From: Candidatus Sericytochromatia bacterium
GTDB taxonomy: Bacteria > Cyanobacteriota > Sericytochromatia > UBA7694 > JACMQJ01
DNA length: 64,000 nt
NCBI GenBank assembly: GCA_046328075.1
Contig: JAXLXG010000007.1
Coordinates: 26,968-90,967, forward strand
Direction of reading: 5' to 3'
The notes under the pieces were generated by a model. It saw only the letters and a program-made list of their open reading frames with translations. It ran no database searches and was not told the origin of the DNA. How positions within the stretch are numbered: the first letter of the stretch is position 1; each line of letters begins with the position of its first letter. A program made the translations under genes and the position numbers. Of this stretch, positions 2,108 to 23,569 are shown in pieces.

Positions 2108-2167
2108 GTTAACTGTAACGAATTAATCATGAATTTATTATAAAAAAAACATCTCGTTACAGTTAAC
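2108..2167. repeat. Paired-box element E1 (GTTAACTGTAAC-36 nt-GTTACAGTTAAC)
   Basis: Perfect 14-bp inverted repeat GTTAACTGTAACGA (2108-2121) / TCGTTACAGTTAAC (2154-2167); intergenic. Confidence 0.9.
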
Positions 2168-2318
2168 AATATATTTATATTCAAATTTATGTTTATTTAG
2201 ATTTTTTTATAATTTTCATTTTATAGTATCATAATAAGTTTATAAAAAAACTTAACTACTAAAATTGTTTAATTCTAGTAGCTTCTTAAACTAATTTATT
2301 TTATTGTAACTTAATTTA

Positions 2319-3524
2319 TTAGTTTTCTTTAATTTTTTCTCTTAATATAACTAACGCTTTTTTTAATTGTGTATCATTTTTATCTAAATTAAAAGGTTTA
2401 GAGATATTGGTTTGAATATTTTTAGGTATTTCTACTACAATATTTGGTTCTATTCCTTTCTTATTTATGTCTGTTCCATTTGGTGTCAAATATTTATTTG
2501 TAGTTATAACTATTCCTGAACCATCATCAAGATTAAATGTACTTTGAACTAAACCTTTTCCAAAAGTTTTTGTACCAATAAGTATTGCTCTATTATTATC
2601 TTTTAATGCACCTGATACTATTTCTGAAGCACTTGCACTACCTTCATCTACTAATAAAGCAATTGGCGTTTCTAATGGTAATTCTATTTTTCCACTAGCG
2701 TTTATATATTCTTTTTCACCTTTTTTATCAACTATCTGTACTATTGAACCGCTTTTAATAAACATATTACTAATATTAATTGCATTAGTTAATAATCCAC
2801 CAGGGTTACCTCTTAGATCAAAAATTAAAGCTTTTATATTATTTTTTTTTAGATTATTTATAGCGTTTTTTACTTCGTTTGATGCTTCATGATTCATAAA
2901 TGTACTAAGACTAATATATCCTATTTTATTTTCAAGGATTTTTGATTTAACTATTATAGGAGTTATATTATCTCTAATAATAGTTTTTTCTAAAACTTTT
3001 TTAATTGATTCTCTATAGATTTTTAAGTTAACTGCTGTTCCCTTTATTCCTTTTATAAGATCAACAGCTTGATCAACTGATAAATCTTTAACAAGATTAT
3101 TATTTATCTCAAGTATAATATCACCAGATTGTAAATCTGATTTTGAGGCAGGACTATTTTCAATTGAAGAAATTATAGTAAGTTCGTTTTTATTATTTTT
3201 ATTTCTAATACCTATCTGAATTCCAATTCCAGTAAAACTTCCTTGTATCTCTTCTGTCATTTTTTTGTAATCTTCAGGACTCAAATATCTAGTATAGGGA
3301 TCTCCTGTTGCTTTTATCATTCCTTTTATTGCACCTTGTACAAGTTTTTCATTATTAATTCCATTAAGATACTCTAAACTTAAAATATCATATGCTCTTA
3401 AAAATAATCCAAAACCTGAATCACTTGCATTTGCTATAAATGGATGAATGTTTAAACCGGCAGTAAATGACGTTAATATTAAAGCTATTACTAAACTTGT
3501 ATTCTTTATTCTTTTTTTTAACAT
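2319..3524 (-). CDS. ctpA: S41 family C-terminal processing peptidase (PDZ + S41)
   Basis: Signal/TM N-terminus, GIGIQI PDZ, DLRGNPGG, GSASASEI (catalytic Ser), KTFGKG (catalytic Lys). Confidence 0.9.
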   Translation of the reverse strand: MLKKRIKNTSLVIALILTSFTAGLNIHPFIANASDSGFGLFLRAYDILSLEYLNGINNEKLVQGAIKGMIKATGDPYTRYLSPEDYKKMTEEIQGSFTGIGIQIGIRNKNNKNELTIISSIENSPASKSDLQSGDIILEINNNLVKDLSVDQAVDLIKGIKGTAVNLKIYRESIKKVLEKTIIRDNITPIIVKSKILENKIGYISLSTFMNHEASNEVKNAINNLKKNNIKALIFDLRGNPGGLLTNAINISNMFIKSGSIVQIVDKKGEKEYINASGKIELPLETPIALLVDEGSASASEIVSGALKDNNRAILIGTKTFGKGLVQSTFNLDDGSGIVITTNKYLTPNGTDINKKGIEPNIVVEIPKNIQTNISKPFNLDKNDTQLKKALVILREKIKEN

Positions 3525-3553
3525 GAAAAACCTTTCTGTCTTTTATTTTTCTA

Positions 3554-4336: not shown

Positions 4337-4337
4337 T

Positions 4338-4820
4338 TTATTTAGTTACCTTTTCTTTAGTTGCTACAAAGCCACCTATTAATTCATTTGAATCAAATAA
4401 AGTTGCAAAACCAACAAATGTTTCTCCTGAGTTATGAATAACACATTCATACTTTACTTTATATGGTTTTTGACCTTCATTAACCATTATTTCAAAATAT
4501 AGTTTATTCTCAGAAATATTTATTTTTTCTAATTTAGATGTAAAAACTTGGGGTACACTTAATGTACCAGATAAAATATTATTAGCTTTTTTCAATGATA
4601 ATTTATCTTTAAAAATTTTGTTACCAATATAAGTGTTTAATGTCCAATCTCCAATATAAAAATTTTCAAGATTATTTTGAATTTTAATATTATTATCAAT
4701 TATTTGTTTAGAGTTTTGTAAATTATTATTTTTAGCATCACAACTATAAGTTATTGAGTTTGCAATCATAAATCCTGTAATTACTGCTGTGTGTTTTAAT
4801 CTTCTCATTTTTTTGTCCAT
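4338..4820 (-). CDS. Hypothetical exported protein
   Basis: 160-aa ORF with signal-like N-terminus, 1 bp from the next gene, no recognised domain. Confidence 0.6.
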   Translation of the reverse strand: MDKKMRRLKHTAVITGFMIANSITYSCDAKNNNLQNSKQIIDNNIKIQNNLENFYIGDWTLNTYIGNKIFKDKLSLKKANNILSGTLSVPQVFTSKLEKINISENKLYFEIMVNEGQKPYKVKYECVIHNSGETFVGFATLFDSNELIGGFVATKEKVTK

Positions 4821-4954: not shown

Positions 4955-5015
4955 AGTTAACTGTAACGAATAATTTTTACCCCCAGAAAATAATGTATTT
5001 ACGTTACAGTTAACT
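4955..5015. repeat. Paired-box element E2
   Basis: Perfect 14-bp inverted repeat AGTTAACTGTAACG (4955-4968) / CGTTACAGTTAACT (5002-5015); 35-nt unique spacer between the boxes. Confidence 0.9.
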
Positions 5016-5082
5016 CATTGTGTGAAATTATAAATTAAACTATAATGAAATTTGAAAAAGATTTTATAAATATTGGTGAATA

Positions 5083-6058: not shown

Positions 6059-6121
6059 AGTTAACTGTAACGATTTATTGTGAGGGTTATTTTTATACAT
6101 ATTTATTTGTTTCCTGTAACG
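6059..6121. repeat. Paired-box element E3 (boxes in direct orientation)
   Basis: GTTAACTGTAAC (6060-6071), 37-nt spacer, GTTTCCTGTAAC (6109-6120). Confidence 0.75.
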
Positions 6122-7537: not shown

Positions 7538-8722
7538 AAATTTTATTATAATAATATGATGATTTTTCAGGATTTTTATCTGAATAATATTCTGCTAATA
7601 CTTTATAATAATCCTTATATTTAAAATTTTTATCTTGTTCTAATAGTTTTTCAATATAAAATATATAGTTTTTAGTATCATTTTTTAGTTCATAGATTTT
7701 TATTAATGATATATAAAAATCTTCTTTAGATATTCCTTCAAAGTTATAAAGTTTGTTATACATATCTATTGCTTTATCATATTCTTTATAAAATACATAT
7801 TTTTCAGCAATTATCTTTATTAGTTCATTTTCATTTATTTTATTATTAGAGTAATTTATAGGAATTAAAATATTGTTTTTATTATTAAATGAGCTATCTT
7901 TTAATCCTAATGATATATTTTCTATTCTAGATAAATTATTATTTTTCATTATTTTTAAAGCTTCTAGATAATAATTACTAAAACTTAAATCCTGAATATT
8001 AGCTAATAAAAGATAAGTTTCAATGTTAGGAAATAATTTTATTGAAAGATCAAGATAATCTGTAATTTTAATCAAAGATTTTTTTAAATCATTTATAAAA
8101 TCTATATTATTAAAAAGTGAGTAATAATCTTTGCTTTTTATTATTATAGATGATATATCACTTATTACAGCAAATGATAATTTATAATATATATAGCTTT
8201 TTAAAATTTGGTAGTTTTTATTAGATTCATAAGGTTTTATATAGTTTAAAAGTTTTAGTAAAATATCTTCATTTTTTGTATTATTACTACCAAAGTTATT
8301 AAAAAATGTTGTTAAATCTATAATATTCTTTCCATTCATTTCAAAATAAGAATAAATAATATTATCCAAAATGATTGTGTTTTTAAAATAATCTTTATCT
8401 GATAAATCATTAGAATTTAAAAAATTAATCAAACTATTGAATTTTAGTTCTTCTTTTTTATCAGATAGGTTTAATAAAGAATATTTATATTCTAAGTTAT
8501 CATCTTTAAGAGATATAATCTTTTTATTAACATACTCAGATTCTCTATAGATCGATAAATAATATTTATAACTTTCAATTAATTCTTCATTTAGCTTAAT
8601 TTTTTCTTGAGTACTAGCTTTAGTAGTATCTAAACTTAAAAAGCTAGATTTATTATTTTGAAATAAGATTAGGTAAGAAATAATGTTTTTACAAAATTCT
8701 TTATCTTCCTTAAATAAATTAA

Positions 8723-9942
8723 CTCAAGTTGTCATAATAATATTAAAAGGCTCTCAAGTATTTAAGTATAGGGTTGTTTAAAGCTCCTGTTGAAACGTCG
8801 ATTTTTCGTTAAAAATATTTTTAATAGACTTAAATATAGGATATAACTTTCGTTCAAGAATACTTTTTGATAAAGTTTGAATATACATAAGAGTTTGAAA
8901 AATGTCATCTTAATTTTTAGAAAATAATTCTACAAAAATGTAAGAGATACAACATAAACTTATATGATTATCTATTTTATCCTGATTATGAGTATTAAAT
9001 GAAGTTAATTAATATAACTTTCATATTTCTAAAAATGACTCAATATGAAATCTTGTTTTATATATTCTAAATATTTCAGTATAAGTCTTAGATTCTGTAC
9101 TTATTAAACAATAAAAATCTCTGTCTATTAGCTTATTTCTGTTATTCGCAACTACTACAAGAGTTGATTTAACATCAAAATATTTTTACAAATTTTTTGC
9201 TCATATATCCAACTTTCTTATAAAAGTAAAAAGAAGCATTTTTTTACATTTTTAAATAGCTCTTTTGGTGTATATTTTTTCTTCCTATAGATAAATTTCT
9301 TAGTTTTTGCAATTCTACAAGTAAAAGGAATCTTTTGCTCATTTATAAAATTAATAAGTACTTCTGAAGTGAATCCTGCATCAAATAATATTCTATCTAT
9401 CTTTAAAGCATTGTCTAATAAACATTTACATATTTAGCAATTTCGTTTTTAGTTAAATAATCATCAGTTCAATCATATCTTTGCATAATTCAAAAATCAA
9501 AATTAATAGATATTTGATACCATTTACAAGAACTATAGCAAATAAAATAACTAAACAAGGCTCATATCTTCTTGTACAATGATTAAATATCAATTATATG
9601 GTCTATCTATTATTTTCATATCCTTATTTATTAACACATAATCCATTATTAATGATTTATCACCTACTGTATTATTGATTATATTTATTATTTCAGGTAC
9701 GTTTATGTTAAATAAATCCTTTAATTTCTTATATTTTCTTCTATCCTTTCTGTTAAGACTACTTACTTGATTATCTGATATATCTCTTTGTTACTGATAA
9801 AAAATCCATTATTGATTCAAATTGTGCTAATATTTTCATTTAGACCTCTTTTACTGAAATTACTTTTATATCTACGTTTCAGTTTATATGAGGTCTACTA
9901 TCTTTAATACATAATAATTTTATTTACTTTGTTCAACTTAAG
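8723..9942 (-). mobile_element. IS4/IS701-like insertion sequence, degenerate
   Basis: Terminal IRs CTCAAGTTG (8723) / CAACTTAAG (9934-9942); 6-bp TSD AATTAA at 8717-8722 and 9943-9948; DDE transposase remnants inside. Confidence 0.8.
8778..9839 (-). pseudogene. DDE transposase, multiple frameshifts
   Basis: Fragments MKILAQFESIMDFLSV, ILFDAGFTSEVLINFINEQKIPFTCRI and YKTRFHIE (YREK-like motif). Confidence 0.75.
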
Positions 9943-10335: not shown

Positions 10336-10662
10336 ATGAAAAAAATACTTATAATTTTATTTATTATATCCATACCTTTAAATTCTTATTCAAATGAAGA
10401 AGAATTTAAATATAATGAACAGTGGAAAACAGTTCAACAACTTCAAAGAATAATTGATAATAATATTTTAAAAGAAGCACCTAGTTTATTTTCAAAAAGA
10501 TTTAAAGACAAAATAAAATTTATAATTGAAAAAGATCCAAATTTTTTTAAAACTGTTTGGGGGTTAAATGAATTTAGATTGAGAATTTATAAAGAACAAG
10601 TTTTTAAAGGTAGAGGTATATTCATATTTGAAGATAATCAATGGAAGATTGATGAATTATAA
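10336..10662 (+). CDS. Hypothetical exported protein
   Basis: MKKILIILFIISIPLNSYS signal peptide; ends IFIFEDNQWKIDEL. Confidence 0.7.
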   Translation: MKKILIILFIISIPLNSYSNEEEFKYNEQWKTVQQLQRIIDNNILKEAPSLFSKRFKDKIKFIIEKDPNFFKTVWGLNEFRLRIYKEQVFKGRGIFIFEDNQWKIDEL

Positions 10663-10667
10663 AAAAA

Positions 10668-10728
10668 AGTTACCTGTAACGAAATTTCATTTTGTGTAAA
10701 AAATATTTTCATTTCGTTACAGGTAACT
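10668..10728. repeat. Paired-box element E4
   Basis: Perfect 18-bp IR AGTTACCTGTAACGAAAT / ATTTCGTTACAGGTAACT, 5 bp from the stop codons of both convergent genes; 35-nt spacer. Confidence 0.92.
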
Positions 10729-10733
10729 AGAGG

Positions 10734-11948
10734 TTAATTATTTAAACCTTTTTTTATAACATTAAACAGCTCATTATCTTTTCTAAAAAATTTTATTTTA
10801 TTAGTGTTTATAATTTTATATGGAATTTTTTGTGTTCCCAATTCATAATCATAACCATCCCATTCGTCTTCTCTGAATGAATAAAAAGCCCAATGAAATT
10901 TTTTACTTTCTAAAATATCTATCATATCATTCAAATATTCTTTACAACCTTTATTTTTTCTCATACAACCAAATTCAGAAACAACAACTCTATTTGAATT
11001 TATAGAATTATTGTTTATCCATTTATAAAAAGGATTGAAATAATCATCTATAGTTTTTTTATTCCAAAAAATTTTACTTTCACCAAAAAATATATTTCCA
11101 GGGTAAATATAATTATTAGAATTTTTAAAATTTTCAAATGATGTAAATGAATAAGGTTCATACATATGAAAAGAATATAATATTTTATTATCTTGAAATT
11201 TTTTAGGAAATTCATAGTAAGAAGATGGTTGAGAATAAAAACCTGATTCAATCATAATTGGCGTATTAATATCAACTTCCCTTATTGAATTAATAATTTT
11301 ATTGTAAAACAAAAATAGATCTTTAGTTGTATTATTATATTTATAATACCAATTTTGAAAGCGTTCATAATTACCAATAGTTGTTTGTTCTTCAATGTTT
11401 GTTTTAAATTCTGGGAAAGGTTCATTAATAATATCATAAGCAACAATACAAGAATATTTTCTTAATTCCCTTGCTAAATCTTGCCAATATTTAATTGATT
11501 TTTCATGATATAAAAAGTTATTCCATAATCTTGAATCTATTAAATTATTATTATTTTGCTTCCATCTAGAACCAGGTAAAGATAAAGGAACAATTACTAT
11601 TTTTAATTTATATTTTTCAGCCCAAGATAATACTTTTTTCAGGATTTTTAAATCTTTTTTTACTAAACCTTGATAATTTGATACATTTCCTATAAGAAAA
11701 TCCTTTCCTTCAGATTTCCATTTATCATAAGCTAAACGAACCCACTTTATATTATTTAAAGATGCTTCTTTAAACCATTCTTCTTTTGGTTCTTGATTAA
11801 AATAATTACAACCTCTATTTGTTTTATCCCAAAACAATATTTTATTATTATCAATAATTTGTGTTTTTGAATAGGAAATTGAATTTAAAGAAAAAACAAA
11901 TAAAAATACGTTAATATATAACTTAAATAAATTTATATTTAACTTCAT
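10734..11948 (-). CDS. Glycoside hydrolase family 5 (cellulase-like)
   Basis: Signal peptide; WVRLAY, AYDIINEP (acid/base Glu), YSFHMY, VSEFG (nucleophile), WAFYSF. Confidence 0.88.
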   Translation of the reverse strand: MKLNINLFKLYINVFLFVFSLNSISYSKTQIIDNNKILFWDKTNRGCNYFNQEPKEEWFKEASLNNIKWVRLAYDKWKSEGKDFLIGNVSNYQGLVKKDLKILKKVLSWAEKYKLKIVIVPLSLPGSRWKQNNNNLIDSRLWNNFLYHEKSIKYWQDLARELRKYSCIVAYDIINEPFPEFKTNIEEQTTIGNYERFQNWYYKYNNTTKDLFLFYNKIINSIREVDINTPIMIESGFYSQPSSYYEFPKKFQDNKILYSFHMYEPYSFTSFENFKNSNNYIYPGNIFFGESKIFWNKKTIDDYFNPFYKWINNNSINSNRVVVSEFGCMRKNKGCKEYLNDMIDILESKKFHWAFYSFREDEWDGYDYELGTQKIPYKIINTNKIKFFRKDNELFNVIKKGLNN

Positions 11949-11952
11949 AAAA

Positions 11953-13050
11953 TCATTCGTTACCTAATAACGTTGAAAAATAATCTTTTCTAATTAGATT
12001 CTGAAAATGATATAAACCTAATTCTCTCTTTACAGATAATCTACCTTTATTATAAACATTAGACTCTAAACCTAGTTGTACATTTTCACATATTTCAATA
12101 TCTTGTTTTTGTATAATATCACTGTATTCTAAATCATCATTAATAATTTTCTTCGATAAATCAGATTCTATATCATCATAGTAATAATCAAATATAACTT
12201 TTGTCTTATCAACAGATTCAGGAATAACTAAATTAGTTTGTAATCGATTAGGAAGTATATTTAGCATAAGATTAGGATATATAAAATAATAAAAAGCTTC
12301 TCCATTATCATTAGATGTATAAATATTTTCACCAGATTTAAAAGGGCTGTATTGCAATGAATAATATTTATAAGCTTCTGTAATATAATTTTTATAATCT
12401 AATAAATCATTTAATTCTGGATGAACTTGTATTAAATGATAACCTTCCAAATAATTATCAACATAAACTTTCCAATTACAATTTATATTATAAACAATCC
12501 TTTTATAAAATTTTTTTGTACTTAAATTTATAGGAGATATTCTTTCTTTTATTCCTTTTATATATTCAGATAAAGGTTCAGATTCATTAGATAAATTAAT
12601 AAAAATAAGGTTTTCCCAAATATCAATATTTATAAGTTTTAATCCAAAATTATTTTTATCAAAATTTTCAACACCTTCAAATTCTGGTAATCCTATCAGT
12701 TTTCCTTGATGATTATAAGTCCAACCATGATATTTACACTTTAAAACATTACAATTTCCATTCTTTAATGCTATAGGCCCAGCTCTATGAGAACATACGT
12801 TATAAAAAGCTCTTATTTTTTCATCTTCTCCTCTAGAAATTATTATAGGGTTATTTGAAACTTGACTTATATAATAATCACCTTTATTTTTTATTTCATT
12901 AACCGAACAAACATATTGCCATGTCTTAGAAATGATATTCTTTTGTTCAAAATTATAAAAATCTATATCTCTATAAATAATTGATGGTAATGTTTCTGAA
13001 ACATTGAAGTCTTTTATTTTAAAATCTTGTATATTTAGCTTTTTTATCAT
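11953..13050 (-). CDS. Rieske aromatic ring-hydroxylating oxygenase alpha subunit (choline monooxygenase-like)
   Basis: Rieske motif CSHRA...CKYHGW; NWKVYVDNYLEGYHLIQVH; QDIEICENVQLG. Confidence 0.9.
   Translation of the reverse strand: MIKKLNIQDFKIKDFNVSETLPSIIYRDIDFYNFEQKNIISKTWQYVCSVNEIKNKGDYYISQVSNNPIIISRGEDEKIRAFYNVCSHRAGPIALKNGNCNVLKCKYHGWTYNHQGKLIGLPEFEGVENFDKNNFGLKLINIDIWENLIFINLSNESEPLSEYIKGIKERISPINLSTKKFYKRIVYNINCNWKVYVDNYLEGYHLIQVHPELNDLLDYKNYITEAYKYYSLQYSPFKSGENIYTSNDNGEAFYYFIYPNLMLNILPNRLQTNLVIPESVDKTKVIFDYYYDDIESDLSKKIINDDLEYSDIIQKQDIEICENVQLGLESNVYNKGRLSVKRELGLYHFQNLIRKDYFSTLLGNE
11957..11972. repeat. Solo box E10 (GTTACCTAATAAC)
   Basis: TCGTTACCTAATAACG overlaps the last codons (TLLGNE*) of the Rieske ORF, just upstream of the GH5 start. 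Confidence 0.65.
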
Positions 13051-13066
13051 AATTCAAATAACTAAA

Positions 13067-13128
13067 CGTAACAGGAAACGAATGTTATTAGTATCGAAGA
13101 ATATATTCCATAATAGTTAACTGTAACG
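13067..13128. repeat. Paired-box element E5
   Basis: GTAACAGGAAAC (13068-13079), 36-nt spacer, GTTAACTGTAAC (13116-13127). Confidence 0.78.
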
Positions 13129-13259
13129 TTTTAAATAAATGTTTCCGCGCGGAAACTAGCTTTTTCTTCTTAAAAACTTATATTATTACTATTAATAAAC
13201 AAGTTATAAATTAATTATACATTTAATTAATATAAAACAAAAGAAATTTTTTTATTAAA

Positions 13260-16200
13260 TTATTGAATAAAATTTTCCATAACACTTTTAAATAAATTTT
13301 CTTTTTTCTTTAACTCTCTTATTTTTGATAACGAAATTATTTTATTTTCATCTCTAAACATAATATTATCATCACTTTTAAATGTAGAATCATAATAATG
13401 ATCTGGAGTATATATAAACATTTCATTATTTTCCCCTAAAATAAAACTCAGTAACTTTTTATTTGTTTTTAAATCATAAAAAACTATTATATTATTAGAC
13501 TCCAAATTAATTTTTAAATTTTTATCATTAATAAATATACTACTATTAGATAAAGAATCTAGTTTATGAGAAGATATATCTTTATACATATAATTTGATA
13601 TTATAGAATTAACCATTTCATTATTTTCTATTTCTATCTTGTATATTTTATTGTCTATATAGATAGAATTATTACTAACAAAATAAATGTTTTTTTCATT
13701 ATCATCTAAATAAAATTCTTTAAAAATCTTATTTTTTTTAAGATCATATACAAATACCTTTTTTGAAAATGTATCACCCATTTTCCATCCATCAACCCAT
13801 TTAGTTGTAAAAACTAATTTAGTTTCATCAAAATTTATATCAATAGAATAAAATGATGAATCATATAAATAATCATAATTTAAACTTTCTGTCACCATTT
13901 TAGTTTCTATATGATTTTTTAATTTAAAGTTTGAAAAATCATATAATTCTATAAAACCTATTTCTGAGCCATGATCAATATCAGTAAAAGGTGTTCCAGA
14001 AAAAATGATGGTATTTTTTTTAACACCCCATTGATTTACTTTATAATTTAAACGTAAAACTTCTTTAGGATTTAACAAATTATCTAAGGAATAGATATAT
14101 GATTTATTATTTTTTTCTTGAATATAAATAAAATTATCATTAAATTTACAAATATTAGAAAAATTTCCTTTTATTGAATTTAAAATTTTCCCAGTCTTTA
14201 AATCTATTAAAAATATACCTTTTGAATTATGAAGATATATAGAATTTTTGTCATGAGAAAGAGTAATACTATATGGTAACCCAAATTCTGAATTAATAGT
14301 ATTCTTATGTTTTAAATCTGTTGCATTTAATACATTAAAAGATTCTTTATTTTTAACTTCTATAACTTCTTTACCTGATTTTGAAAAATTATAATCAAAC
14401 ATATTTGTAGAAGTATCTCTTTGACTAACAATCTTTCTATTTTTTATATCTATCAATGCTGTTATATTATTTTCTCCACCCCCCCAATCATTTACGATTA
14501 CTTTATCTTCAGTAGGATGTGAAGATATTTCTGAAACAAGTGATGGTATTTTCATATTTTTATATGACCAATTTTTTAAATCCCATATATGTAATACTCT
14601 ATTATTATCAGCACATATAAGAAAATTTCCATTTTCTGTTTGCCCTAAAGAATGAGGCCAATCAACATTATCAAATACCTTAACTAAATTAAGTGTTTTG
14701 GAATCAAAAATTTTTAACTTTCCTTGGTTAAACTTTTCAATTCCAACTATATATTTACCATCTTTTGTCCATAACATCTGACCTCTTGAATCAAAATTTT
14801 GTTTAAAATTCGTTTGTATTTTCTTTTTTTTAGAAAGGTTATATTTGCAAAGATTACCATTTACAAGTTTAAAAACAATTTCTGAACTATCAGGACTCCA
14901 AGCAATATTTTTAACATCTTCATCAAAAAATATAAGATTTTCAAGATTATCTTTTTCTAAATCAATTAAAGCTACAGTTTTTAAACTTGAAAAAGATCCA
15001 AGATTTGTTATTATAAATTTTCCATTAGGAGATATTTCACGTAATGAATCATAATAAAGCCCATCAGGTAAATTATAATTTTTTAATTGAAATAAATCTT
15101 TCATTTCAGTAAATTGCATAGGCTGATAACCACTAACAAAAAAGTTTTTATCTGGTGAAATATTAATAAACTCATTATTTAAATTTCTTTTGAAGACAAA
15201 AGGTTCTTTTGAGATTAAATTTTTAAAATTGTTTTTATATTTTAATAATAAATTAATTCTATTATTCTCATACTCAAAATAATCCTCACTTAAATATATT
15301 TTATTAGAATAATCTTGTTTTTCTAAATTCTTTAAGTAAAATATTGATTTTTCAAAATTTCCAGAATCTAAACTATATTTGTACAAATATTGGTATATTT
15401 CTGATTTATTAAATAAATTATCATTTAAAAGTTCTAATAAAAACTTTTCAGCTTTATTATAATCACTAAAATATTATTTGTATAATCATTAATATTTTTC
15501 CATCTATCTTTATTTGTTAAGGAATTTTTTATTGACAAAAGATAATACTTTTCTGAGTCTAAATTTTTATTATTTGAAATTTTAGCAATATAAGACAAAA
15601 AGTCTTGCCTATCAAAAAATATTTTTAAAGAAATTTCTAATAATTTAGAAGCATCTTCTTTTTTATTTAATAAATTAAGTAATTCATACATTTTTAAAGC
15701 AACATCAGTTGTAGGTAAAATATCAAAAGCTTTTTTATAATAATTATATGAACTTTCAAATTTATCAAATTCTTTAAATTTATCAGCTATTAATTGATAA
15801 GAGTTAAGCATAAATATTTTACTATCTAACGTTTTATTTTTATTTACAGATTTATATTTAAGATATTCAATCAAGAGATTTAAATTTTTTAATTTTTTAT
15901 TAGAAAATTTTTCATTAAAATCTTTATTTGTTGTTAAATTAATAAATTCACGCCAAAGTTCAAAATTTTCTCTTCCTTCTTTCTTATTAAGAGCATTAAT
16001 AAAATATTGTTCTGCTAAATCTATTTGACCTGTATTTTTTAATTCCAAACCATTTATATAATCAAAAATATATAAATTAGCTCCTAATTTTTTGCTACAT
16101 TTTTCTAAAAATTCATTAGCATAATCTTGATTATTAAGATTATATTTATAAAAATAATATCCCATACCAATTAAAGAATAATTATTATGTGAAGGATTTA

Positions 16201-16638
16201 AGTTTAAAGCTTTATCAAGTTTTTTTATTATTTCTTTTGAATTTTCTTTAGGATTATATGTTTTTAAATAGTTATATAAAGAAGGGATAAAAAAAGGGTA
16301 TTTTTTCATACAATCTTCATAGTATTCATCTCTAAGAATTGGTTTATTATCATAATCTGCTAACCAACCTTTAGAAAAAATACCCTCTGGAGAATTTGGG
16401 TATTTTTTTGAAAGATAATAACGAATATAAATTTTTTCATAAATACTTTCAATATTAAGGCTTAATTTAAGTAAATCTTCTTTTTTATACTTTTCATAAC
16501 TATTAAATGATAATTGTTTTATATTAGAAATATCATTTTTTTATTATATAAAACATTCAATTCTTTAGAATAACTATATTGAACATATAAAACACTTAAT
16601 AATATAAACCGATATTATAATAAGAAATTTTTCTTCAT
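13260..16638 (-). pseudogene. Large exported TPR + WD40/beta-propeller protein, frameshifted
   Basis: ORFs 15434..16309 (TPR-like) and 13260..15386 (WD40-like, IAWSPDSSEI, LHIWDLKNW) join across a shift near 15470; frame extends upstream to ATG 16638 with further shifts. Confidence 0.7.
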
Positions 16639-16784
16639 ATAGAACCTTTATTTAAATTATAATTAGTTTGATAATTGGATAGAAAATAGTTAATAGTAAT
16701 ACTTTTTTTGTTTGCATATGATTAAAATATAAAATATGATTTTGGAAATTTTATTATTTTATAAGTTTAATGTCAAATAATTTA

Positions 16785-16847
16785 AGTTACAGTTAACGAA
16801 AAAAAAATAATCAAATATATATTTATAATTTATCGTTACCAATAACG
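16785..16847. repeat. Paired-box element E6
   Basis: GTTACAGTTAAC (16786-16797), 37-nt spacer, GTTACCAATAAC (16835-16846), 16 bp past the AraC stop. Confidence 0.82.
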
Positions 16848-16863
16848 TTTAAATAATTATAAT

Positions 16864-17775
16864 TTAATTATTATGCCTAAATTCATTAGGAGTCATACCA
16901 GTTTTTAACTTAAAAAGTTTTGAAAAATATTGAGGATACTCAAAACCTAATGAAAAAGATAAATCATTAATAGAATTATTCGTACTTAATAATAAATTTT
17001 TAGCTTCTTCAATCAGATAATAATGAATTAAATCTTGAGCATTTTTTCCTGTCTCTTTTTTTAATAAATCACTTAAATAATTAGGAGATAAAAATACTTT
17101 TTCTGCAAGAAATTTAACTGTAGGTAAACCATTTGATATTAAATTATCAGATTTAAAATATTCAAGTAAAATATTCTCAATCTTTTCTAAAATATCACTA
17201 TTTATATTTTTTCTAGTAATAAACTGTCTATCATAATATCTAGAACAATAATTAAGTAATAATTCTAAATTTGATACAATTAATGTTTGGCTATGTTTAT
17301 CAATATTTTCTTGTAATTCAATTTGAATTTTTTTTACAATATCATTTAAAATCTGTTTTTCTTTTTCTGATAAATGTAATGACTCATTAACTTCATAAGA
17401 AAAAAAGGTATAATTTTTTATATTCTTACCTAAAGAAGTACCTCTAATTAAATCAGGATGAAAAAATATTCCCCAACCAATTGAATTATCTTTTTTTTCT
17501 ATTGGTTCATCTAAAGTAATGACTTGTTTCGGGGCTATACAAAATAAACTTCCTTCTTGAAAATCATAGTTTTGTCTTCCATACTTCATTTTATTTAAAC
17601 AATAATTTTTAAACATAATAGAATAAAATCCAACATTTATTTTTATATCATTCTCAAAACTATGCTCAAATTTAGTAAAATCAATTATAGTTATAAGAGG
17701 ATGTTTAACATGATTTTGATTAGGAAGAGCTTTATGTAAATCACTTATTGTATCTAAATTTATAATTTCATTCAT
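16864..17775 (-). CDS. AraC-family transcriptional regulator
   Basis: C-terminal double HTH (PTVKFLAEKVFLSPNYLSDLLKKETG...LGFEYPQYFSKLFKLKTGMTPNEFR). Confidence 0.93.
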   Translation of the reverse strand: MNEIINLDTISDLHKALPNQNHVKHPLITIIDFTKFEHSFENDIKINVGFYSIMFKNYCLNKMKYGRQNYDFQEGSLFCIAPKQVITLDEPIEKKDNSIGWGIFFHPDLIRGTSLGKNIKNYTFFSYEVNESLHLSEKEKQILNDIVKKIQIELQENIDKHSQTLIVSNLELLLNYCSRYYDRQFITRKNINSDILEKIENILLEYFKSDNLISNGLPTVKFLAEKVFLSPNYLSDLLKKETGKNAQDLIHYYLIEEAKNLLLSTNNSINDLSFSLGFEYPQYFSKLFKLKTGMTPNEFRHNN

Positions 17776-17784
17776 AAAATTTAC

Positions 17785-18597
17785 CTATACTTGACTCATA
17801 ACAACTTTATCAAAAATTTTATCACCAAAAAAGACTCTCATAAATACCATTGGTTTAGCCCATTTTCCAACTAAATATCTAGTTTTTGGACTATTAGAGT
17901 TTATAATATTTAAAACTGTATCAGCTATTAATGAAGGTTTAGAACCTCCACCTTCATCCATTTTTTTTGTAGCTATAGTTAATTTTCTTACTATTTCAGA
18001 ATATGGCCCATTACCTGAAAATTTAGAAATATTATCTAATAATACAGAACCAAATTCAGTTGCTATAATACCAGGTTCTAAAACAACTACATTAATATTA
18101 AATTGTTTAAGTTCGAGCCTTAAACAATCACTCCAACCTTCTAATGCGTGTTTTGTTGCATGATACCAAGCTCCCATAGGAGTATACATTTTTCCACCCA
18201 TTGATGATGTATTTATGATAGTTCCACTTTTTGCTTTTCTCATAAATGGTATTACTTTTTGAGTTAATAGGGCTAAACCAAAAATATTTACTTCAAATTG
18301 TTTTCTTGCTTCACTTATTGGTATTTCCTCAACAGAACCATATAAACCATAACCTGCATTATTCCAAAGAACATCAATTTTTCCTTCTTTTTTAATTATA
18401 GTATCTAAAACATTTTGAACATCTTCCTCATTTGTAATATCCATTTTTATAGGATATGCTCCTAAATTTTTTAGTTCATCCATTAACTCAATTCTTCTTG
18501 CTACTGTATAAACTATATTCCCTTCTTTTATAAGTTTTTTAGCAGTTTCTTTACCAATTCCAGAACTAGCACCAGTTATTAATATTACTTTTTTCAT
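17785..18597 (-). CDS. Short-chain dehydrogenase/reductase
   Basis: TGASSGIG, NNAG, YHATK (YxxxK). Confidence 0.93.
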   Translation of the reverse strand: MKKVILITGASSGIGKETAKKLIKEGNIVYTVARRIELMDELKNLGAYPIKMDITNEEDVQNVLDTIIKKEGKIDVLWNNAGYGLYGSVEEIPISEARKQFEVNIFGLALLTQKVIPFMRKAKSGTIINTSSMGGKMYTPMGAWYHATKHALEGWSDCLRLELKQFNINVVVLEPGIIATEFGSVLLDNISKFSGNGPYSEIVRKLTIATKKMDEGGGSKPSLIADTVLNIINSNSPKTRYLVGKWAKPMVFMRVFFGDKIFDKVVMSQV

Positions 18598-18949: not shown

Positions 18950-19011
18950 ATTACAGGTAACGATAAATAAAAAAAACTATAACAAAAAAGATAATTCGTT
19001 ATTGTATAACG
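18950..19011. repeat. Paired-box element E7
   Basis: ATTACAGGTAAC (18950-18961), 36-nt spacer, GTTATTGTATAAC (18998-19010). Confidence 0.78.
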
Positions 19012-19735: not shown

Positions 19736-19781
19736 TCGTTATACTTTAACGCTAAAAGCGAAAACAAGTTAACTATAACGA
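19736..19781. repeat. Paired-box element E8 (short form)
   Basis: TCGTTATACTTTAAC, 17-nt spacer, GTTAACTATAACGA; begins immediately after the methyltransferase stop codon. Confidence 0.8.
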
Positions 19782-20914
19782 TTAAAGTTTTTTATTAGTA
19801 ATAATCGAGGTATTACCATATTTAAGAGCAAAGCAGAGCTTAGGGGAATTAAACCTAAAAATAGCTCTACTTTCTAATCTTTGGATAAGCCAAAGAATTT
19901 AGGTTATATTTACACCAGAGTTAATATGATTCCATTATATAGACTTTATTTTTATTCAATCATTTATTTAAAATATTACATGAATTAATAGAGCCTAACT
20001 TACAAGCTAATTTCAACTCCAAGTTATAATTTTTAATATTATTAGATTCCTTATAGAAATAAGCTAATTGTAAATGATAGTTAGACTCATAAGGATTAAT
20101 TCTTATAGACTCCTCAAGACCAGCAATAGAATCATTAATCTTCCCTTGATTTTTTAAGTGCATTGCTAAATCATAAAATTCTTTATGATTATAAGGACTA
20201 TATTGAAGAATCTTTTTATACTCTTTTAGTTTATTAATTCTAATTAATTCTTTAAGTTGTAAATTAGACTTTATTTTATAAATTCTAGATAAATTATTAT
20301 AAATTTTAGGATTATCATTTATTTTTAAGTAATTAGTATATATTTTTTCAGCATTATCAAAATCTAAAATTTTCATATAGGCATTAGCCAAATTACTAAT
20401 TGTATTAATATCTCTAGTATTTTTTAAATAAGCAACTTTAAAAGGATAAATATAAATATTATTTTTTTGTTGTTTTATCTTTTCATTATATAAATCTTCT
20501 AAACTAAAGATTGCTTGATTATAACTTGAATCAACTTTTAAAGCATTGTTTAATTGCAAAATAGCATCATCAAATTTACCTTCCAATCTATAAGCATTAG
20601 AAAGATTATAGTAAGAATCAGCAGAACTAGGCAAATAATAAGTTTGATATTTTAAATCATATATTTTTTCATAAAATAAGAATTCTCTTTCTTTATCAAA
20701 ATCACCTAATTTTTGATATATGTTAGCAACTTTTTTATAAGTTTCTTTGGAAAAATTTTTAGTATTTATAAGGACATTATAATGAAATAAAGATTTTTTA
20801 AAGTCTTTATCATAATAATAATCTGCAAGTTTAGAATTTATAAGAGTATTATTAATATCAATAGCAATAATTTTATTCAAATATTTTAACTTTTCTAACT
20901 CATTTTTATTTATT

Positions 20915-21815
20915 GAGGTTGTTTAACCTTTCATAATATTTTTAAAAAAGATAATAGAAAAAGCCAAATAATTAAGTTGTAGCCAATTTATAGATTTAAC
21001 TTCATATCGAACTAATAAAGCTTTATAACTATCTAACCAAGCAAAAAATCTTTCTACTACAAATCTTTCCTTATATATCTGTTTATATTTTATTTTAACA
21101 ATATCTTTATTTTTATTGTTTCTAACATTTTTATAAACATTTAAGATAATACCTTTTTCAATACAAAACTCCTTTAATATATCATTATCAAAACCACTAT
21201 CTGCATTTAAAGCTGGAAATCTTGATATTTTAGAAATAAATGGAGTCCAAAGTAAATTTAGACTATAAGCTAAATTATAGCTATCATGATGATTTCCACT
21301 TTCTGGCTCACTACAACTTAAAGGTAAGCCGTTTCTATCTGTTAAATAAAGCATATTTGTTGTTTGGGCTTTCTTTCTAGTTTGAAAGTCTACTTTCTCC
21401 CCACCTCTTTTTGCAATTGTATGGCTACCATCTAAATTTATTACATCTAAATCTAATATAGAATTAAACTTTATTAATACCTTTTCCCATAATGCTTTAA
21501 AATCTCCATTATTTGACCATCTATTAAAATGGTAATAAATAGTTTGCCAACTAGGACAATCTCCTTCAAAAAATTGTCTTATTGGTAATTCTCTCCATTG
21601 ACATCCTGTTTTTAACCTATAACAAATGCAATTAAATATCCCTAATAATGGATATGTTATTGCAAATCCTCTTTTATTTTTTGATAAATTGGGTTTTATA
21701 AAGCTATCAAATATTTTTTCTGCTATCATATCTATCTGTTTCACTTGGTTGTAATAATATTTTTATACATTTTATTACAACCTTTTTTAAACTAAAAAAA
21801 AGGTTAAACAACCTC
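20915..21815 (-). mobile_element. IS5-family insertion sequence, apparently intact
   Basis: 17-bp perfect terminal IR GAGGTTGTTTAACCTTT; 3-bp TSD ATT (20912-20914 and 21816-21818); 901 bp. Confidence 0.92.
20923..21744 (-). CDS. IS5-family transposase
   Basis: YRLKTGCQWRELP, WQTIYYHFNRWS, NLDGS, ADSGFD, YKERFVVERFFAWL. Confidence 0.93.
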   Translation of the reverse strand: MKQIDMIAEKIFDSFIKPNLSKNKRGFAITYPLLGIFNCICYRLKTGCQWRELPIRQFFEGDCPSWQTIYYHFNRWSNNGDFKALWEKVLIKFNSILDLDVINLDGSHTIAKRGGEKVDFQTRKKAQTTNMLYLTDRNGLPLSCSEPESGNHHDSYNLAYSLNLLWTPFISKISRFPALNADSGFDNDILKEFCIEKGIILNVYKNVRNNKNKDIVKIKYKQIYKERFVVERFFAWLDSYKALLVRYEVKSINWLQLNYLAFSIIFFKNIMKG

Positions 21816-23523
21816 ATTGAATAAATTTCTGATAATTCATATAAAGCATGTATATTATTTGGTTCAATTTCAAGTATTTTTTTATACATATTACTAGCTT
21901 TAGTATATTCTTTATAATTTCGATATTTATCAGCCAATAATAAAATATATTTTACATTTTTGGGGTCAGACATATATGCCTTTTTAAAATAATCTAGTGG
22001 ATTCTCTGTAAAAATTTTATTTAAATCAGTTTCTTGAACATATAGATAATAAGAATCGAGAATATTACCCAATTTTTCATAAACTTCTGGATCTTTATCG
22101 TTAAAATTTAAAGATCTTTTATAAGCTAATATTGAAAAATTTAGATTAGGAAGATTATTTTTAGTAAAAAAATCTCCAATTTTAATATGTATTAGAGGTT
22201 TTTTAAAAACATTCTGAATATTTTGAATATCATCAATAAGATTAGTTTCAATTTGAATTTCTTTTAATGTATTTATAAAACTAATATAATCCTGAAAATA
22301 GTAATAAATGAAAGCTAAATTATTAAGTATTTCATCATTTGTTTTATCAAATTCCTTAGCTTTTTTATAATAAATCAAAGCTTTTTTAAAATTTCTCTTT
22401 TTTAGATATATATCAGCAATAATTTTATAAATTTTAGTATTTTTATTTTTTTCTAAAATTTCTTTATAAAAAGCTACAGTATATTCTATATCTTCTGAGT
22501 ATAAAATCTCATCTAATTTTGCCATAATTGTTGAACTATTTGGATTATTAATAACTCCATTTTTTAAAACATTCAAAATATATTTTTTCTCATTAATTAT
22601 TAATTTCTTATTTTTTTGAATACTATAAATATGATAAAGATTATCTATAATATCTACATCTGAAGTTAAAGTTTCAAAGGCTTTTTTATAATAAGTTAAA
22701 GCTTTTTCATATTCTTTTTTTTCACCATAAGCAGATGCAATATTATTATACGCATAAATATAATAAGGATTAATTTTTAAAGCTTTTTGGTATTCTAAAA
22801 GAGCTTCATCATATTTTTGATATATAAGATAAGCATTACCTAACTCACTATGAGCAAATAACATTCTTGGATTTAATAAGATGGTTTTTTTTATATTGGG
22901 ATCTTCAGGATTTTGAACATTTGAAGAGTACCATATCCAAAAGTAAGCCTCTGGATTATTTGGAGATAAAGATAAAGAAATTTTTGCGTATTCTAAAGCT
23001 TTAAAAAAATTAAAATTAAATTTATAATATGCAGATAAAGAAATATAAGCATCAGATAAATTATTATTTAGACTTATTGCTTTTTCAGCGTTATTCTTTG
23101 CTTCATTAAATAATTCTGAAGAATTTAATTTATCATCCCTTATTCTATAAGCTAAAAAAGATTGTGATAAAGATTTTGCAGATAATATTTCTGGAGAATT
23201 TGGATTTATTTCTAATGCTTTATTAAATAAATCAATTGAATCTTTATAATCTTTTATTGTATGTAATAAATAAAATTCTAATCCTTTTTTATAAAGATTG
23301 TAAGCATTTACATTTACAATCTTGTTGTCTATATCATTTGCATATACAGATTTAGAATAAGTACATATATTAAAAGATAATAAAACTGTTAAACAAAATC
23401 TAACTATTTTCATTTTGGAACCTTAATTTAAAAATTTAAATAAATTGATTTAAAAAAAATATTAATACAAATAATAGAAAAATAAAATATATATACTCAA
23501 AATAAATTGCTTTAACAATATAA

Positions 23524-23569
23524 TCGTTACCTTATTACGTAAAAAATATAATAACATTAACTATAACGA
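23524..23569. repeat. Paired-box element E9 (short form)
   Basis: TCGTTACCTTATTAC, 17-nt spacer, ATTAACTATAACGA; same 46-bp length and same right arm as E8. Confidence 0.72.

What the first reader, a model, noticed from the sequence alone, without database searches (positions are those of the whole stretch)
2108..23569. Family of paired GTTA-N4/5-TAAC boxes marking almost every module boundary in the accessory region: candidate non-canonical gene-cassette recombination system
Seen: nine paired elements (E1 2108, E2 4955, E3 6059, E4 10668, E5 13067, E6 16785, E7 18950, E8 19736, E9 23524) and one solo box (11957). Each is two quasi-palindromic 12-13 nt boxes (consensus GTTA[AC]CT[GA]TAAC, often extended to TCGTTA..TAACGA) around a unique AT-rich spacer. 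I saw none in 24-64 kb. They occur between convergent (E3, E4, E8), divergent (E2, E7, E9) and tandem (E1, E5, E6) genes, several abutting stop codons, so they are not simple promoter operators. Established: integron attC sites run from ...AAC to GTT..., are variable in the middle, and sit right after cassette stop codons. Acinetobacter pdif sites bound gene modules in alternating orientation. Inference: these are recombination sites delimiting a cassette array (CALIN-like). Unlike classical integrons, the modules face both ways, some are multi-gene and carry their own promoters, and each box is itself palindromic. No recombinase is in the window.
Basis: partly seen in the sequence, partly recalled or inferred. 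Interest (0 to 1): 0.88.

Follow-up and report, generated by a model that had tools for sequence, protein, structure and literature searches.

The report
Paired palindromic boxes at gene-swap seams
One 33-kb gene array in an uncultured, very AT-rich relative of cyanobacteria carries 14 copies of a two-box DNA element found nowhere else in its genome, and related organisms hold different genes between the same elements, so the elements mark seams where gene blocks are exchanged, by an enzyme not yet identified.

Summary
There are 14 paired elements, not nine plus a solo box. Four lie just upstream of the window, and the "solo" box has a partner. All 14 sit in one 33-kb, 19-22% GC stretch of one contig of a 4.67-Mb genome, and none occurs elsewhere.

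Each element has two asymmetric 14-nt boxes (RTTAMCTGTAACGA). The boxes are usually inverted with CGA facing inward. The gap between them is 16-17 or 34-38 nt of unconserved AT-rich spacer.

The same family turned up in a related organism (a 14-kb metagenome contig with nine elements) and in a third (one element).
- Four anchor genes keep their order, but the genes between them are replaced or inserted, mostly at elements.
- In a 99%-identical strain, divergence jumps from 0.8% to about 15% exactly at element E4.

These are not integron attC sites. There is no IntI, no bulged attC architecture, about half cannot fold as hairpins, and box orientation varies.

No recombinase lies in either array. 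A ParB-family gene abuts the array in the relative.

Best reading (about 0.45): protein-bound dyad sites that act as recombination seams of a cassette-like array. The enzyme is unknown. The sequencing-run search (look-up of sequencing runs) was closed, so I could not test reads for circles or alternative junctions.

The parts
2108..2167 (.). E1: GTTAACTGTAACGA - 32 nt - TCGTTACAGTTAAC. Canonical inverted (F-R) long element between the S41 peptidase stop and the epimerase start (tandem, minus-strand genes).
   Evidence: folds as a 14-bp stem, z = -3.9
4956..5014 (.). E2: canonical F-R long element in a divergent gap (lipoprotein operon / hyp99).
6060..6120 (.). E3: F-F (direct) long element in a convergent gap. 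Orthologous position to element k4 of the relative (L008 3764-3823).
   Evidence: (no hairpin)
10669..10727 (.). E4: canonical F-R long element (GTTACC variant in both arms) that fills the whole gap between two convergent stop codons. Divergence breakpoint between sister strains. Orthologous to L008 k6.
   Evidence: (18-bp stem)
11910..11971 (.). The right box encodes the last codons of the Rieske oxygenase; the left box lies in the GH5 signal-peptide codons. Orthologous to L008 k7.
13067..13127 (.). E5: R-F ('inside-out') long element 17 nt upstream of the Rieske start. An element is kept at this junction in three organisms, with different spacers and box orientations.
13141..13156 (.). GTTTCCGCGCGGAAAC: GC-rich bidirectional terminator-like palindrome next to E5. 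It is unique in the genome and identical in the two other organisms.
16786..16846 (.). E6: long element between the WD40-TPR block and the AraC-SDR block. This block junction is absent from the relative.
18950..19010 (.). E7: long element 35 nt upstream of the methyltransferase start, at the right edge of the 5.9-kb segment that the relatives lack.
19738..19779 (.). E8: short element (17-nt gap) starting 2 nt after the methyltransferase stop. It shares the private ACTA centre with E9.
23526..23567 (.). E9: short element (16-nt gap). With E8 it brackets the TPR-IS5-TPR block, which the relative lacks between the methyltransferase and the Gly/Ala-rich gene.
10734..11948 (-). GH5 glycoside hydrolase: the gene in the slot between E4 and S. 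The relative holds an Asp-Al_Ex transporter in the same slot, between its own two elements.
13260..18597 (-). WD40, TPR291, AraC and SDR genes: two blocks present here but absent between Rieske and the methyltransferase in two related organisms.

Best explanation
The elements are a genus-specific family of cis-acting dyad sites. Each has two asymmetric 14-nt boxes (RTTAMCTGTAACGA), normally inverted with the CGA ends facing each other. The box centres lie about 29 or about 48 bp apart, around an unconserved AT-rich spacer.

I read them as double-stranded binding sites for a sequence-specific protein that binds each box and pairs the two boxes of an element. The spacings would be roughly 3 or 5 helical turns; this is inference.

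The sites are kept by selection at the junctions of gene blocks in one plastic array. Gene blocks are gained, lost and replaced at them. They therefore work as the recombination seams of a cassette-like array that is not an integron.

Shown:
- confinement to one array;
- conservation of box sequence and position across three organisms while the spacers are not conserved;
- gene replacement or insertion between conserved anchor genes, mostly at elements;
- a strain-level divergence breakpoint at E4.

Inferred:
- that a protein binds the boxes;
- that exchange is targeted to the boxes by an enzyme encoded elsewhere, rather than happening passively through the short repeats.
For: 1. Specificity. 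All 12 exact 12-mers and all 5 extended palindromes in 4.67 Mb lie in C67:17196-50534. None was found in 40 relatives, in same-family genomes or in viral contigs. The only hit in metagenome contigs is an unrelated 64% GC site.

2. Anatomy. The consensus is strongly conserved. Gaps are bimodal: 16-17 or 34-38 nt. Ten of 15 classifiable elements are F-R, against 25% expected for random orientation (p = 8e-4). The two boxes of one element share variants (p = 0.07-0.08 and 0.06).

3. A related organism (L008/L013) carries nine elements of the same consensus in 8.3 kb. A third organism (L016) carries one at the Rieske-methyltransferase junction.

4. The four anchors hyp108, Rieske, methyltransferase and the Gly/Ala-rich gene keep their order. 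Between them:
- GH5 here is replaced by a transporter there, with elements on both sides in both genomes.
- Two extra blocks (WD40-TPR, AraC-SDR) come with E6 and E7.
- One extra block is bracketed by E8 and E9.
- A 3.9-kb block here sits where the relative has only element k5.

5. Against the sister strain L011, there are 23 differences in 2853 nt (0.8%) to the right of E4. To the left there are 23 in 154 nt (15%). The E4 spacer does not align directly and aligns better inverted (p about 0.02).

6. Elements occur in convergent (6), divergent (4) and tandem (4) gaps. Several abut or overlap stop codons. Spacers lack any consistent -10 element; 6 of 19 have none. A simple promoter-operator role therefore does not fit.

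7. The array is the lowest-GC part of the contig and carries an IS5 insertion, a decayed transposase and a truncated endonuclease I gene.
Against: - No recombinase or transposase gene that could act on the boxes lies in either array. All tyrosine and serine recombinases of the genome are on other contigs and have no box nearby.
- Element number does not track block number. One inserted segment has no element at its left edge, and one block has none at either edge.
- Single-copy core genes are involved: ppc is flanked by two elements and ahcY by one.
- Seams would fall in intergenic gaps anyway, and nearly half the gaps in the array hold an element. The coincidence is therefore only moderately significant (my rough estimate, p about 0.02).
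- The comparison rests on three partial relatives.
Confidence: 0.45

Rival explanations
1. The boxes are binding sites of an architectural or partition-type protein with no part in recombination. The candidate is the family-specific ParB/Noc-like protein, which would load at a cluster of palindromic sites as ParB does at clustered parS or KorB at dispersed OB sites. This would form a centromere-like, silencing or insulating domain over the array. Gene turnover at the sites would be incidental to their intergenic position.
For: - In the relative, a 324-aa ParB-family gene abuts the last element: its stop codon is followed directly by a box embedded in a 14-bp-arm palindrome.
- Our ortholog (C26:38475-39452) is 92% identical, while other orthologs are 62-80% identical. 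That matches the identical box consensus in both organisms.
- It is a real ParB-family member: TIGR00180 E = 1e-11, Noc E = 4e-10, and PDB ParB chains over residues 33-202.
- No canonical parS is present in the genome, although a parA-parB operon is.
- The 14-16-bp near-palindromes cluster in 8-33 kb and are unique in the genome.
- Box positions are conserved while spacers are free, as expected for a binding-site footprint.
Against: - In our genome the ParB-like gene is on a different contig, with no box within the whole 62-kb contig.
- Same-family relatives keep the protein (56-69% identity) but show no box pairs, and no palindrome family within 40 kb either side of the gene.
- Known ParB sites are single symmetric palindromes. 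They are not asymmetric boxes in fixed-distance inverted pairs, and they are not excluded from coding DNA (established knowledge, recalled).
- A centromere in a low-GC, IS-ridden, variable island would be unusual.
Confidence: 0.2
2. The elements are REPIN/BIME-like selfish or structural repeats: doublets of a short palindromic repeat that spread locally. They coincide with rearrangement points only because short repeats and hairpins are fragile.
For: - Two short repeats in inverted orientation at a fixed distance, around a less conserved spacer, strictly extragenic or at gene ends. This is the REPIN definition (PMC3116915, PMC3337134).
- The arms of one element share private variants.
- Three boxes sit at the tip of longer perfect palindromes.
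- A possible loop inversion at E4 between strains would suggest hairpin or cruciform formation in vivo.
Against: - There are only 14 copies, all in one array, whereas REPINs are dispersed through extragenic space.
- No RAYT gene is present. The only Y1 transposase is an IS200-type TnpA (133 bits). Its score for the REP-associated tyrosine transposase model is 28.5 against a cut-off of 80, and no boxes flank it.
- Half the elements cannot form the doublet hairpin.
- Spacers share no homology, unlike copies of a transposing unit.
- No target-site duplications are visible (sequence inspection).
Confidence: 0.15
3. The elements are transcription punctuation: operator pairs, insulators or terminator-like hairpins reused at gene boundaries, like the promoter/stem-loop cassettes (PeSLs) of T4-type phages. 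Any shuffling would be a passive by-product of repeated regulatory DNA.
For: - Some elements are well placed for this. E1 holds a TTAACT-18-TATAAT match that points at the epimerase gene.
- E4 and element A are strong hairpins between convergent genes, and E4 is followed by a T-run on the minus strand.
- LysR and AraC regulators lie in the array.
- Earlier scan notes describe similar boundary cassettes in phages (leads only, not tested here).
Against: - Six of 14 elements sit between convergent stop codons, where no promoter is expected.
- Six of 19 long spacers have no -10-like hexamer, and there is no fixed position for one.
- Promoter-like matches are not enriched: 218 found against 200 expected.
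- Loops of 25-33 nt and the F-F/R-F elements do not make terminators. Genes nearby have their own GC-rich terminators.
- The relative's array lacks the AraC and LysR genes.
Confidence: 0.1
4. The array is a classical integron cassette array without its integrase (CALIN), and the elements are attC sites.
For: - The long elements are about 60 bp.
- They start with ...AAC and end with GTT....
- The middle is variable.
- Several abut or contain stop codons.
Against: See the membership test. In short:
- no IntI;
- no unpaired central spacer or extrahelical bases;
- half the elements are not hairpins;
- blocks are multi-gene and face both ways;
- the two arms are perfectly symmetric, so the strand bias that attC needs is missing.
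Confidence: 0.02

Closest known systems
Integron attC sites / CALIN arrays
   Same: Arrays of about 60-bp imperfect inverted repeats with conserved ends and variable middles. They sit at gene ends, sometimes containing the stop codon, in a region whose gene content differs between relatives.
   Different: - No integron integrase.
- The arms pair continuously, without an unpaired central spacer or extrahelical bases.
- Half the elements cannot fold.
- Box orientation varies.
- Blocks are multi-gene, face both ways and carry their own terminators.
- Element count does not equal cassette count.
- There are two discrete length classes.
dif modules (pdif sites) of Acinetobacter plasmids (PMC6449649, PMC13141974)
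   Same: Short recombinase-type sites bound gene modules that face either way. Modules are shuffled between relatives. The recombinase (XerC/D) is encoded elsewhere in the genome.
   Different: - A pdif site is a single 28-bp site (11-6-11) shared by neighbouring modules, in alternating orientation.
- Here each boundary has two 14-nt boxes 16-38 nt apart.
- There is no 6-bp central region between inverted arms.
- There is no match to dif consensus sequences.
- The location is chromosomal, in one array only.
REPINs / BIMEs (PMC3116915, PMC3337134)
   Same: Doublets of a short palindromic repeat in inverted orientation at a fixed distance, with a less conserved spacer. They are extragenic, and the arms co-vary.
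   Different: - No RAYT gene.
- Only 14 copies, all in one 33-kb array rather than dispersed.
- Spacers share no homology.
- Orthologous positions are conserved across species, with gene turnover between them.
PeSL mobile regulatory cassettes of T4-type phages (PMC2839356; cited from earlier scan notes, not read here)
   Same: Repeated boundary elements flank swappable genes in a hyperplastic region, and the shuffling needs no dedicated recombinase.
   Different: PeSLs are a promoter plus a terminator stem-loop and act in phage genomes. Here there is no consistent promoter, many elements are not hairpins, and the host is a bacterial chromosome.
Clustered ParB/KorB binding sites (parS, OB)
   Same: 14-16-bp near-palindromes, unique in the genome and clustered over 10-35 kb. 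A ParB-family gene lies next to the array in one organism.
   Different: The sites here are asymmetric, come in fixed-distance pairs, are excluded from coding DNA and lie in a variable island. In our genome the ParB-like gene is not linked to the array.

Membership tests
Integron attC / CALIN | An integron integrase (IntI, with the extra domain of about 35 residues near patch III) in the genome, usually next to the array | tested here: not met
   There are six PF00589 hits, none on C67. The best (C2, 414 aa) scores 207.8 bits against the 265-bit cut-off of TIGR02249. It matches in two stretches, the first stopping at model position 177 of 315. It reaches threshold only for the general XerA/'integron integrase' model NF040815 (221 against 220). 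The assembly is 82.6% complete, so absence is not proven.
Integron attC / CALIN | Folded single strand with an R box, an unpaired central spacer, an L box with extrahelical bases, and a variable terminal structure (PMC4889954) | tested here: not met
   Where the arms pair, they pair continuously for 13-18 bp with no bulge. Only 6-7 of 14 elements form the hairpin. The rest have z-scores from -2.3 to +0.9 or fold box-internally. Feature list taken.
Integron attC / CALIN | R'' = RYYYAAC and R' = GTTRRRY at the two ends | tested here: inconclusive
   The ends read xGTTAAC ... GTTAACx, which is 5-6 of 7 matches by eye. IntegronFinder's covariance model was not available. Rfam has no matching family.
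Integron attC / CALIN | One attC per cassette; cassettes mostly single, promoterless ORFs in one orientation | tested here: not met
   Blocks hold 1-4 or more genes on both strands, with their own terminators. In the comparison with the relative, block gains add 0, 1 or 2 elements.
dif modules / Xer sites | A 28-bp site with two 11-bp arms around a 6-bp centre, matching dif/pdif consensus | tested here: not met
   The conserved unit is 14 nt with a 2-4-nt pseudo-dyad centre. Nothing is conserved beyond it. Similarity to pdif arms was judged only from memory.
dif modules / Xer sites | Modules differ between relatives at the sites | tested here: met
   Gene replacement and insertions occur between conserved anchors, mostly at elements. 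There is a divergence breakpoint at E4.
REPIN / BIME | Inverted doublet of a short repeat at a fixed distance, located extragenically | tested here: met
   Ten of 15 classifiable elements are F-R (p = 8e-4). Gaps are 16-17 or 34-38 nt. All elements are intergenic or at gene ends.
REPIN / BIME | A RAYT (REP-associated tyrosine transposase) gene in the genome | tested here: not met
   The only full Y1_Tnp gene is IS200-type. It scores 133 bits on NF033573 but only 28.5 on the REP_Tyr_transpos model, whose cut-off is 80.
REPIN / BIME | Many copies dispersed through the genome's extragenic space | tested here: not met
   There are 14 copies, all within 33 kb of one contig.
ParB-parS-type site cluster | A ParB-family protein that binds the sites | not testable with these tools
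   A ParB-family gene abuts the array in L013. Its 92%-identical ortholog in our genome is on contig C26. Binding was not tested.
ParB-parS-type site cluster | Sites close to the parB gene | tested here: inconclusive
   Met in L013, where the box starts 5 nt after the stop codon. Not met in our genome, where no box occurs anywhere on C26.

The most novel reading that the evidence does not exclude
This is a gene-cassette system that is not an integron. A recombinase encoded away from the array recognises paired asymmetric 14-nt boxes set 3 or 5 helical turns apart. The candidates are the Xer/IntI-like tyrosine recombinase on C2 or a small serine recombinase on C64 or C66. The recombinase would insert, excise and swap single- and multi-gene blocks in either orientation, in a non-photosynthetic cyanobacterial sister lineage (Sericytochromatia-like).
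Probability: 0.25. Interest if true: 0.85.

Novelty: new variant of a known kind. Interest (0 to 1): 0.62.

Why it matters
Integrons and dif modules are the main well-described systems in which short sites bound exchangeable chromosomal or plasmid gene blocks. A third architecture would show that cassette-like gene capture has evolved more than once. This one has paired asymmetric boxes, two fixed spacings, blocks in both orientations and an enzyme encoded elsewhere. It would also give a handle on genome plasticity in an uncultured, barely studied lineage. Even if the boxes prove to be binding sites for a ParB-like or other architectural protein, a genus-specific array of 9-14 such sites that coincides with gene-swap seams is not described, and it can be tested directly with simple binding and recombination assays.

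Tried and rejected
- **Other genetic code.** Table 4 adds nothing coherent.
- **Rfam.** No family matches any element.
- **IS ends.** The IS5-family element at 20917-21817 has unrelated inverted ends (GAGGTTGTTTAACC...).
- **Boxes near recombinases.** None lies within 3 kb of any tyrosine recombinase or the Y1 transposase. None lies at contig ends or on C47.
- **Replication terminus or origin.** There is no GC-skew switch at the array.
- **Promoter in the spacer.** No consistent -10 element. Promoter-like sites are not enriched.
- **Module-end covariation** (claimed in sister notes). Not significant.
- **Split-spacer model.** The idea was that short elements are halves of a long element split by an inserted block. 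The gap lengths fit (17+17, 17+16), and the short elements do come in two pairs, each flanking one block. But box orientations are inconsistent between the two pairs, and the relative has no element at the empty site. I kept this only as an idea.
- **Exact left junction of the 5.9-kb insertion.** Homology after the conserved terminator is not significant (p = 0.09-0.18).
- **Synteny with the 94%-AhcY relative.** It breaks exactly after ahcY, where element A begins. However, synteny is scrambled every 2-3 genes in general, so this is uninformative.
- **Analogous families in same-family genomes.** None was found at the ParB-like locus or the Rieske locus.
- **Single metagenome hit.** It is an operator-like palindrome in 64% GC DNA, judged unrelated.

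Full report
**Source and setting.** The window is positions 26968-90967 of contig C67 (156 kb) of a 4.67-Mb, 71-contig genome. The genome is about 83% complete and has 26% GC. The nearest named relatives of its AhcY and Ppc proteins are metagenome-assembled 'Candidatus Sericytochromatia' / Cyanobacteriota genomes. The standard bacterial genetic code fits.

**1.
- GTTA-N4-TAAC occurs 13 times in the window against 1.5 expected. All four N5 variants are also at those sites.
- In the whole genome the specific 12-mer GTTAMCTGTAAC, in either orientation, occurs 12 times, all on C67. Base composition predicts about 1.3.
- All five CGTTA-N4/5-TAACG palindromes in the genome lie in the cluster.
- Allowing mismatches brought out four more elements upstream of the window, at C67 17196, 18850, 22215 and 26284.
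- Relaxed pairs elsewhere in the genome are at chance density and lack the CTG core.
In a sister strain that partner reads GTTAACATATAACG, closer to consensus.
- The array therefore has 14 paired elements in C67:17196-50534. This is the lowest-GC part of the contig, at 19-22% against 25-30% elsewhere.

**2. Anatomy.**
- I oriented 38 twelve-nt boxes from three organisms by their centre. The motif is an asymmetric 14-mer, RTTAMCTGTAACGA. Positions 2-13 are each held in 32-38 of 38 boxes, apart from the A/C position. It contains a pseudo-dyad (GTTAC-CT-GTAAC in its most symmetric form).
- Gaps between the two 12-nt cores are 16-17 nt in four elements: A, B, E8 and E9. They are 34-38 nt in the other twenty. 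No intermediate lengths occur.
- Box centres are thus about 29 or about 48 bp apart. That would be roughly 3 or 5 helical turns; this is my inference.
- Ten of 15 classifiable elements have the canonical arrangement: the left box reads forward, the right box is its reverse complement, and the CGA ends face the spacer. This is far more than random orientation would give (p = 8e-4). F-F, R-F and R-R elements also exist.
- Only 6-7 of our 14 elements can form the long hairpin as single strands.
- Spacers are AT-rich and share no homology.
- Three boxes sit at the tip of longer perfect palindromes.
- The two boxes of one element tend to share private variants (p = 0.07-0.08 here, 0.06 in the relative). 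Boxes at the two ends of a gene block do not (p = 0.5, 0.19 and 0.6). The element, not the block with its flanking boxes, is therefore the evolving unit.

**3. Surroundings.**
- Elements lie in six convergent, four divergent and four tandem gaps. Several abut stop codons within 0-10 nt. E4 fills the whole gap between two convergent stops. The right box of S encodes the last codons of the Rieske oxygenase.
- The blocks between elements are heterogeneous. They include an alpha/beta hydrolase, Ppc, TPR proteins, LysR, an epimerase, an S41 peptidase-nitroreductase-lipoprotein operon, GH5, a Rieske oxygenase, a WD40 protein, AraC-SDR and a methyltransferase.
- AhcY and Ppc are single-copy housekeeping genes.
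- The region also holds an IS5 insertion that splits a TPR gene, a decayed transposase and a truncated endonuclease I gene.
- No tyrosine, serine or Y1 recombinase gene is on C67.
- The best tyrosine recombinase (on C2) is Xer-like and falls below the integron-integrase cut-off. The Y1 enzyme is an IS200 transposase, not a RAYT.
- No box lies near any tyrosine recombinase or the Y1 transposase gene.

**4. Relatives: the key evidence.**

The motif is absent from the 40 nearest reference genomes, from same-family genomes even in degenerate form and from viral contigs. The one metagenome hit is an unrelated 64% GC operator-like palindrome.

Homologues of array genes led to related contigs.

*(a) L008/L013.* This is a 14.2-kb JGI metagenome contig at 23.6% GC. 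It was recovered identically from two further runs.
- Its proteins are 62-92% identical to ours.
- It carries nine elements of the same consensus within 8.3 kb and none outside that stretch.
- Four anchors are shared in the same order: hyp108, Rieske, the methyltransferase and a Gly/Ala-rich protein. Two non-coding stretches around E3 are shared as well.
- An element sits at the same junction in both genomes in four places: E3/k4, E4/k6, S/k7 and E5/k8.
- Between the anchors the content differs:
  - GH5 here against an Asp-Al_Ex transporter there, each between two elements.
  - WD40-TPR, E6, AraC-SDR and E7 here, against nothing between Rieske and the methyltransferase there.
  - E8, a TPR-IS-TPR block and E9 here, against nothing between the methyltransferase and the Gly/Ala gene there.
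  - A 3.9-kb block here, where the relative has only element k5.
- By my manual count, seven of eight edges of the larger variants have an element within 150 nt. About 45% would be expected if elements and seams were independent among intergenic gaps, giving a rough p of about 0.02.

*(b) L016.* This 1-kb activated-sludge contig comes from a third organism. It has the Rieske-side start, one element, the same GTTTCCGCGCGGAAAC palindrome and then the methyltransferase, as in L008. Across the three organisms this orthologous element keeps its place and its boxes. Its spacer and box orientations differ, while the adjacent palindrome is identical.

*(c) L011.* This 3.1-kb contig from a sister strain is colinear with window 10507-13590.
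- To the right of E4 there are 23 differences in 2853 nt (0.8%).
- To the left of E4 there are 23 differences in 154 nt (15%).
- E4 itself keeps its boxes, but its spacer does not align directly. It aligns better in reverse complement (p about 0.02).
- E4 is therefore a recombination breakpoint between two lineages.

**5. What it is not.**
- *attC.* There is no IntI, no unpaired central spacer, no extrahelical bases and no consistent hairpin. Blocks are multi-gene and face both ways. Element and block numbers are not tied.
- *dif/pdif.* There is no 11-6-11 site.
- *REPIN/BIME.* There is no RAYT and no dispersal.
- *Promoter or terminator.* Six of 19 long spacers lack any -10-like hexamer. Promoter-like matches are not enriched. 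Loops are 25-33 nt. Genes nearby have their own GC-rich terminators.

**6. A candidate binding protein.**
- In L013 the last element starts 5 nt after the stop codon of a 324-aa gene. That gene's product is 92% identical to the product of our C26:38475-39452.
- It belongs to the ParB/Noc family.
- In our genome it lies 3 kb from a parA-parB operon. The genome has no canonical parS.
- The protein occurs only in this taxonomic family.
- Against this link, our copy sits on a contig with no box at all. Same-family relatives have the protein but no comparable sites. The link rests on one adjacency.

**7. Reading.**
- The conserved asymmetric boxes, the fixed two-state spacing and the mostly inverted arrangement point to protein-bound double-stranded dyad sites. 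So does their retention at orthologous junctions while the spacers change.
- Their confinement to one plastic array points to a role as recombination seams of a cassette-like array. So do the block replacement and insertions that occur mostly at them, and the strain breakpoint at E4.
- Whether a dedicated recombinase encoded elsewhere does the cutting and joining is not settled. The alternative is that short repeats or cruciforms simply attract recombination.
- I put about 0.45 on the seam reading as a whole, with about 0.25 on a dedicated system. I put 0.2 on a purely architectural or partition role, 0.15 on REPIN-like repeats, 0.1 on transcription punctuation and 0.02 on a classical CALIN.

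**8. Limits.**
- The comparison rests on three partial relatives.
- The MAG is incomplete.
- AT-rich intergenic DNA aligns poorly, so exact junctions could not be fixed.

Noticed in passing
window 13141-13156 (also L008 about 7841-7856 and L016 about 183-198): The GC-rich palindrome GTTTCCGCGCGGAAAC is unique in the genome and 100% conserved next to the Rieske-side element in three organisms. In two of them it lies between divergent genes, where a terminator has no obvious job. Its arms (GTTTCC/GGAAAC) recur in the odd boxes E3-right and E5-left.
   Followed up: partly
G000 contig C26:38475-44158: A ParB/Noc-like gene (325 aa, restricted to this taxonomic family) lies 3 kb from a parA-parB operon. 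The genome has no canonical parS within one mismatch, so the centromere sequence of this lineage is unknown.
   Followed up: partly
window 20917-21817: An IS5-family element (DUF4096 plus DDE domains) with inverted ends GAGGTTGTTTAACC... splits a TPR gene. An identical transposase copy is on C6 and a 94%-identical one is on C2.
   Followed up: partly
window about 9021-9790, minus strand: Stop-riddled frames resemble a decayed DDE transposase, in a 1.5-kb stretch with no intact ORF.
   Followed up: no
L002 8340-8921 (C67:22340-22921): A truncated endonuclease I gene covers only positions 3-130 of the 235-position Pfam model. It sits just right of element C. Three fuller paralogues lie on other contigs.
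   Followed up: no
whole genome (contigs not located): Two high-copy repeats stand out: about 85 copies of ...GTCTCAATCCCAATCAGGGTCAGAGTGCTATCGCGAGA... and about 40 copies of ...CCAAATCTGTAGGTGAAGGTCTACCCAAATC.... They look like CRISPR repeats or another repeat family.
   Followed up: no
G000 contig C2:about 96000-97300: A 414-aa tyrosine recombinase has a 130-residue N-terminal extension. It reaches the NCBIfam 'XerA / integron integrase' threshold by one bit but fails the true integron-integrase model.
   Followed up: partly
window 24370-31067 and beyond: A large polyketide synthase cluster starts 74 nt after the array's last anchor gene. In the relative, the same anchor gene is followed by an element and then the ParB-like gene.
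   Followed up: no
window 2545-2657: A sub-threshold Rfam match to Rickettsia sRNA47 (31.5 bits against a gathering score of 60) lies inside the S41 peptidase gene. It is probably a chance hit in AT-rich DNA.
   Followed up: no
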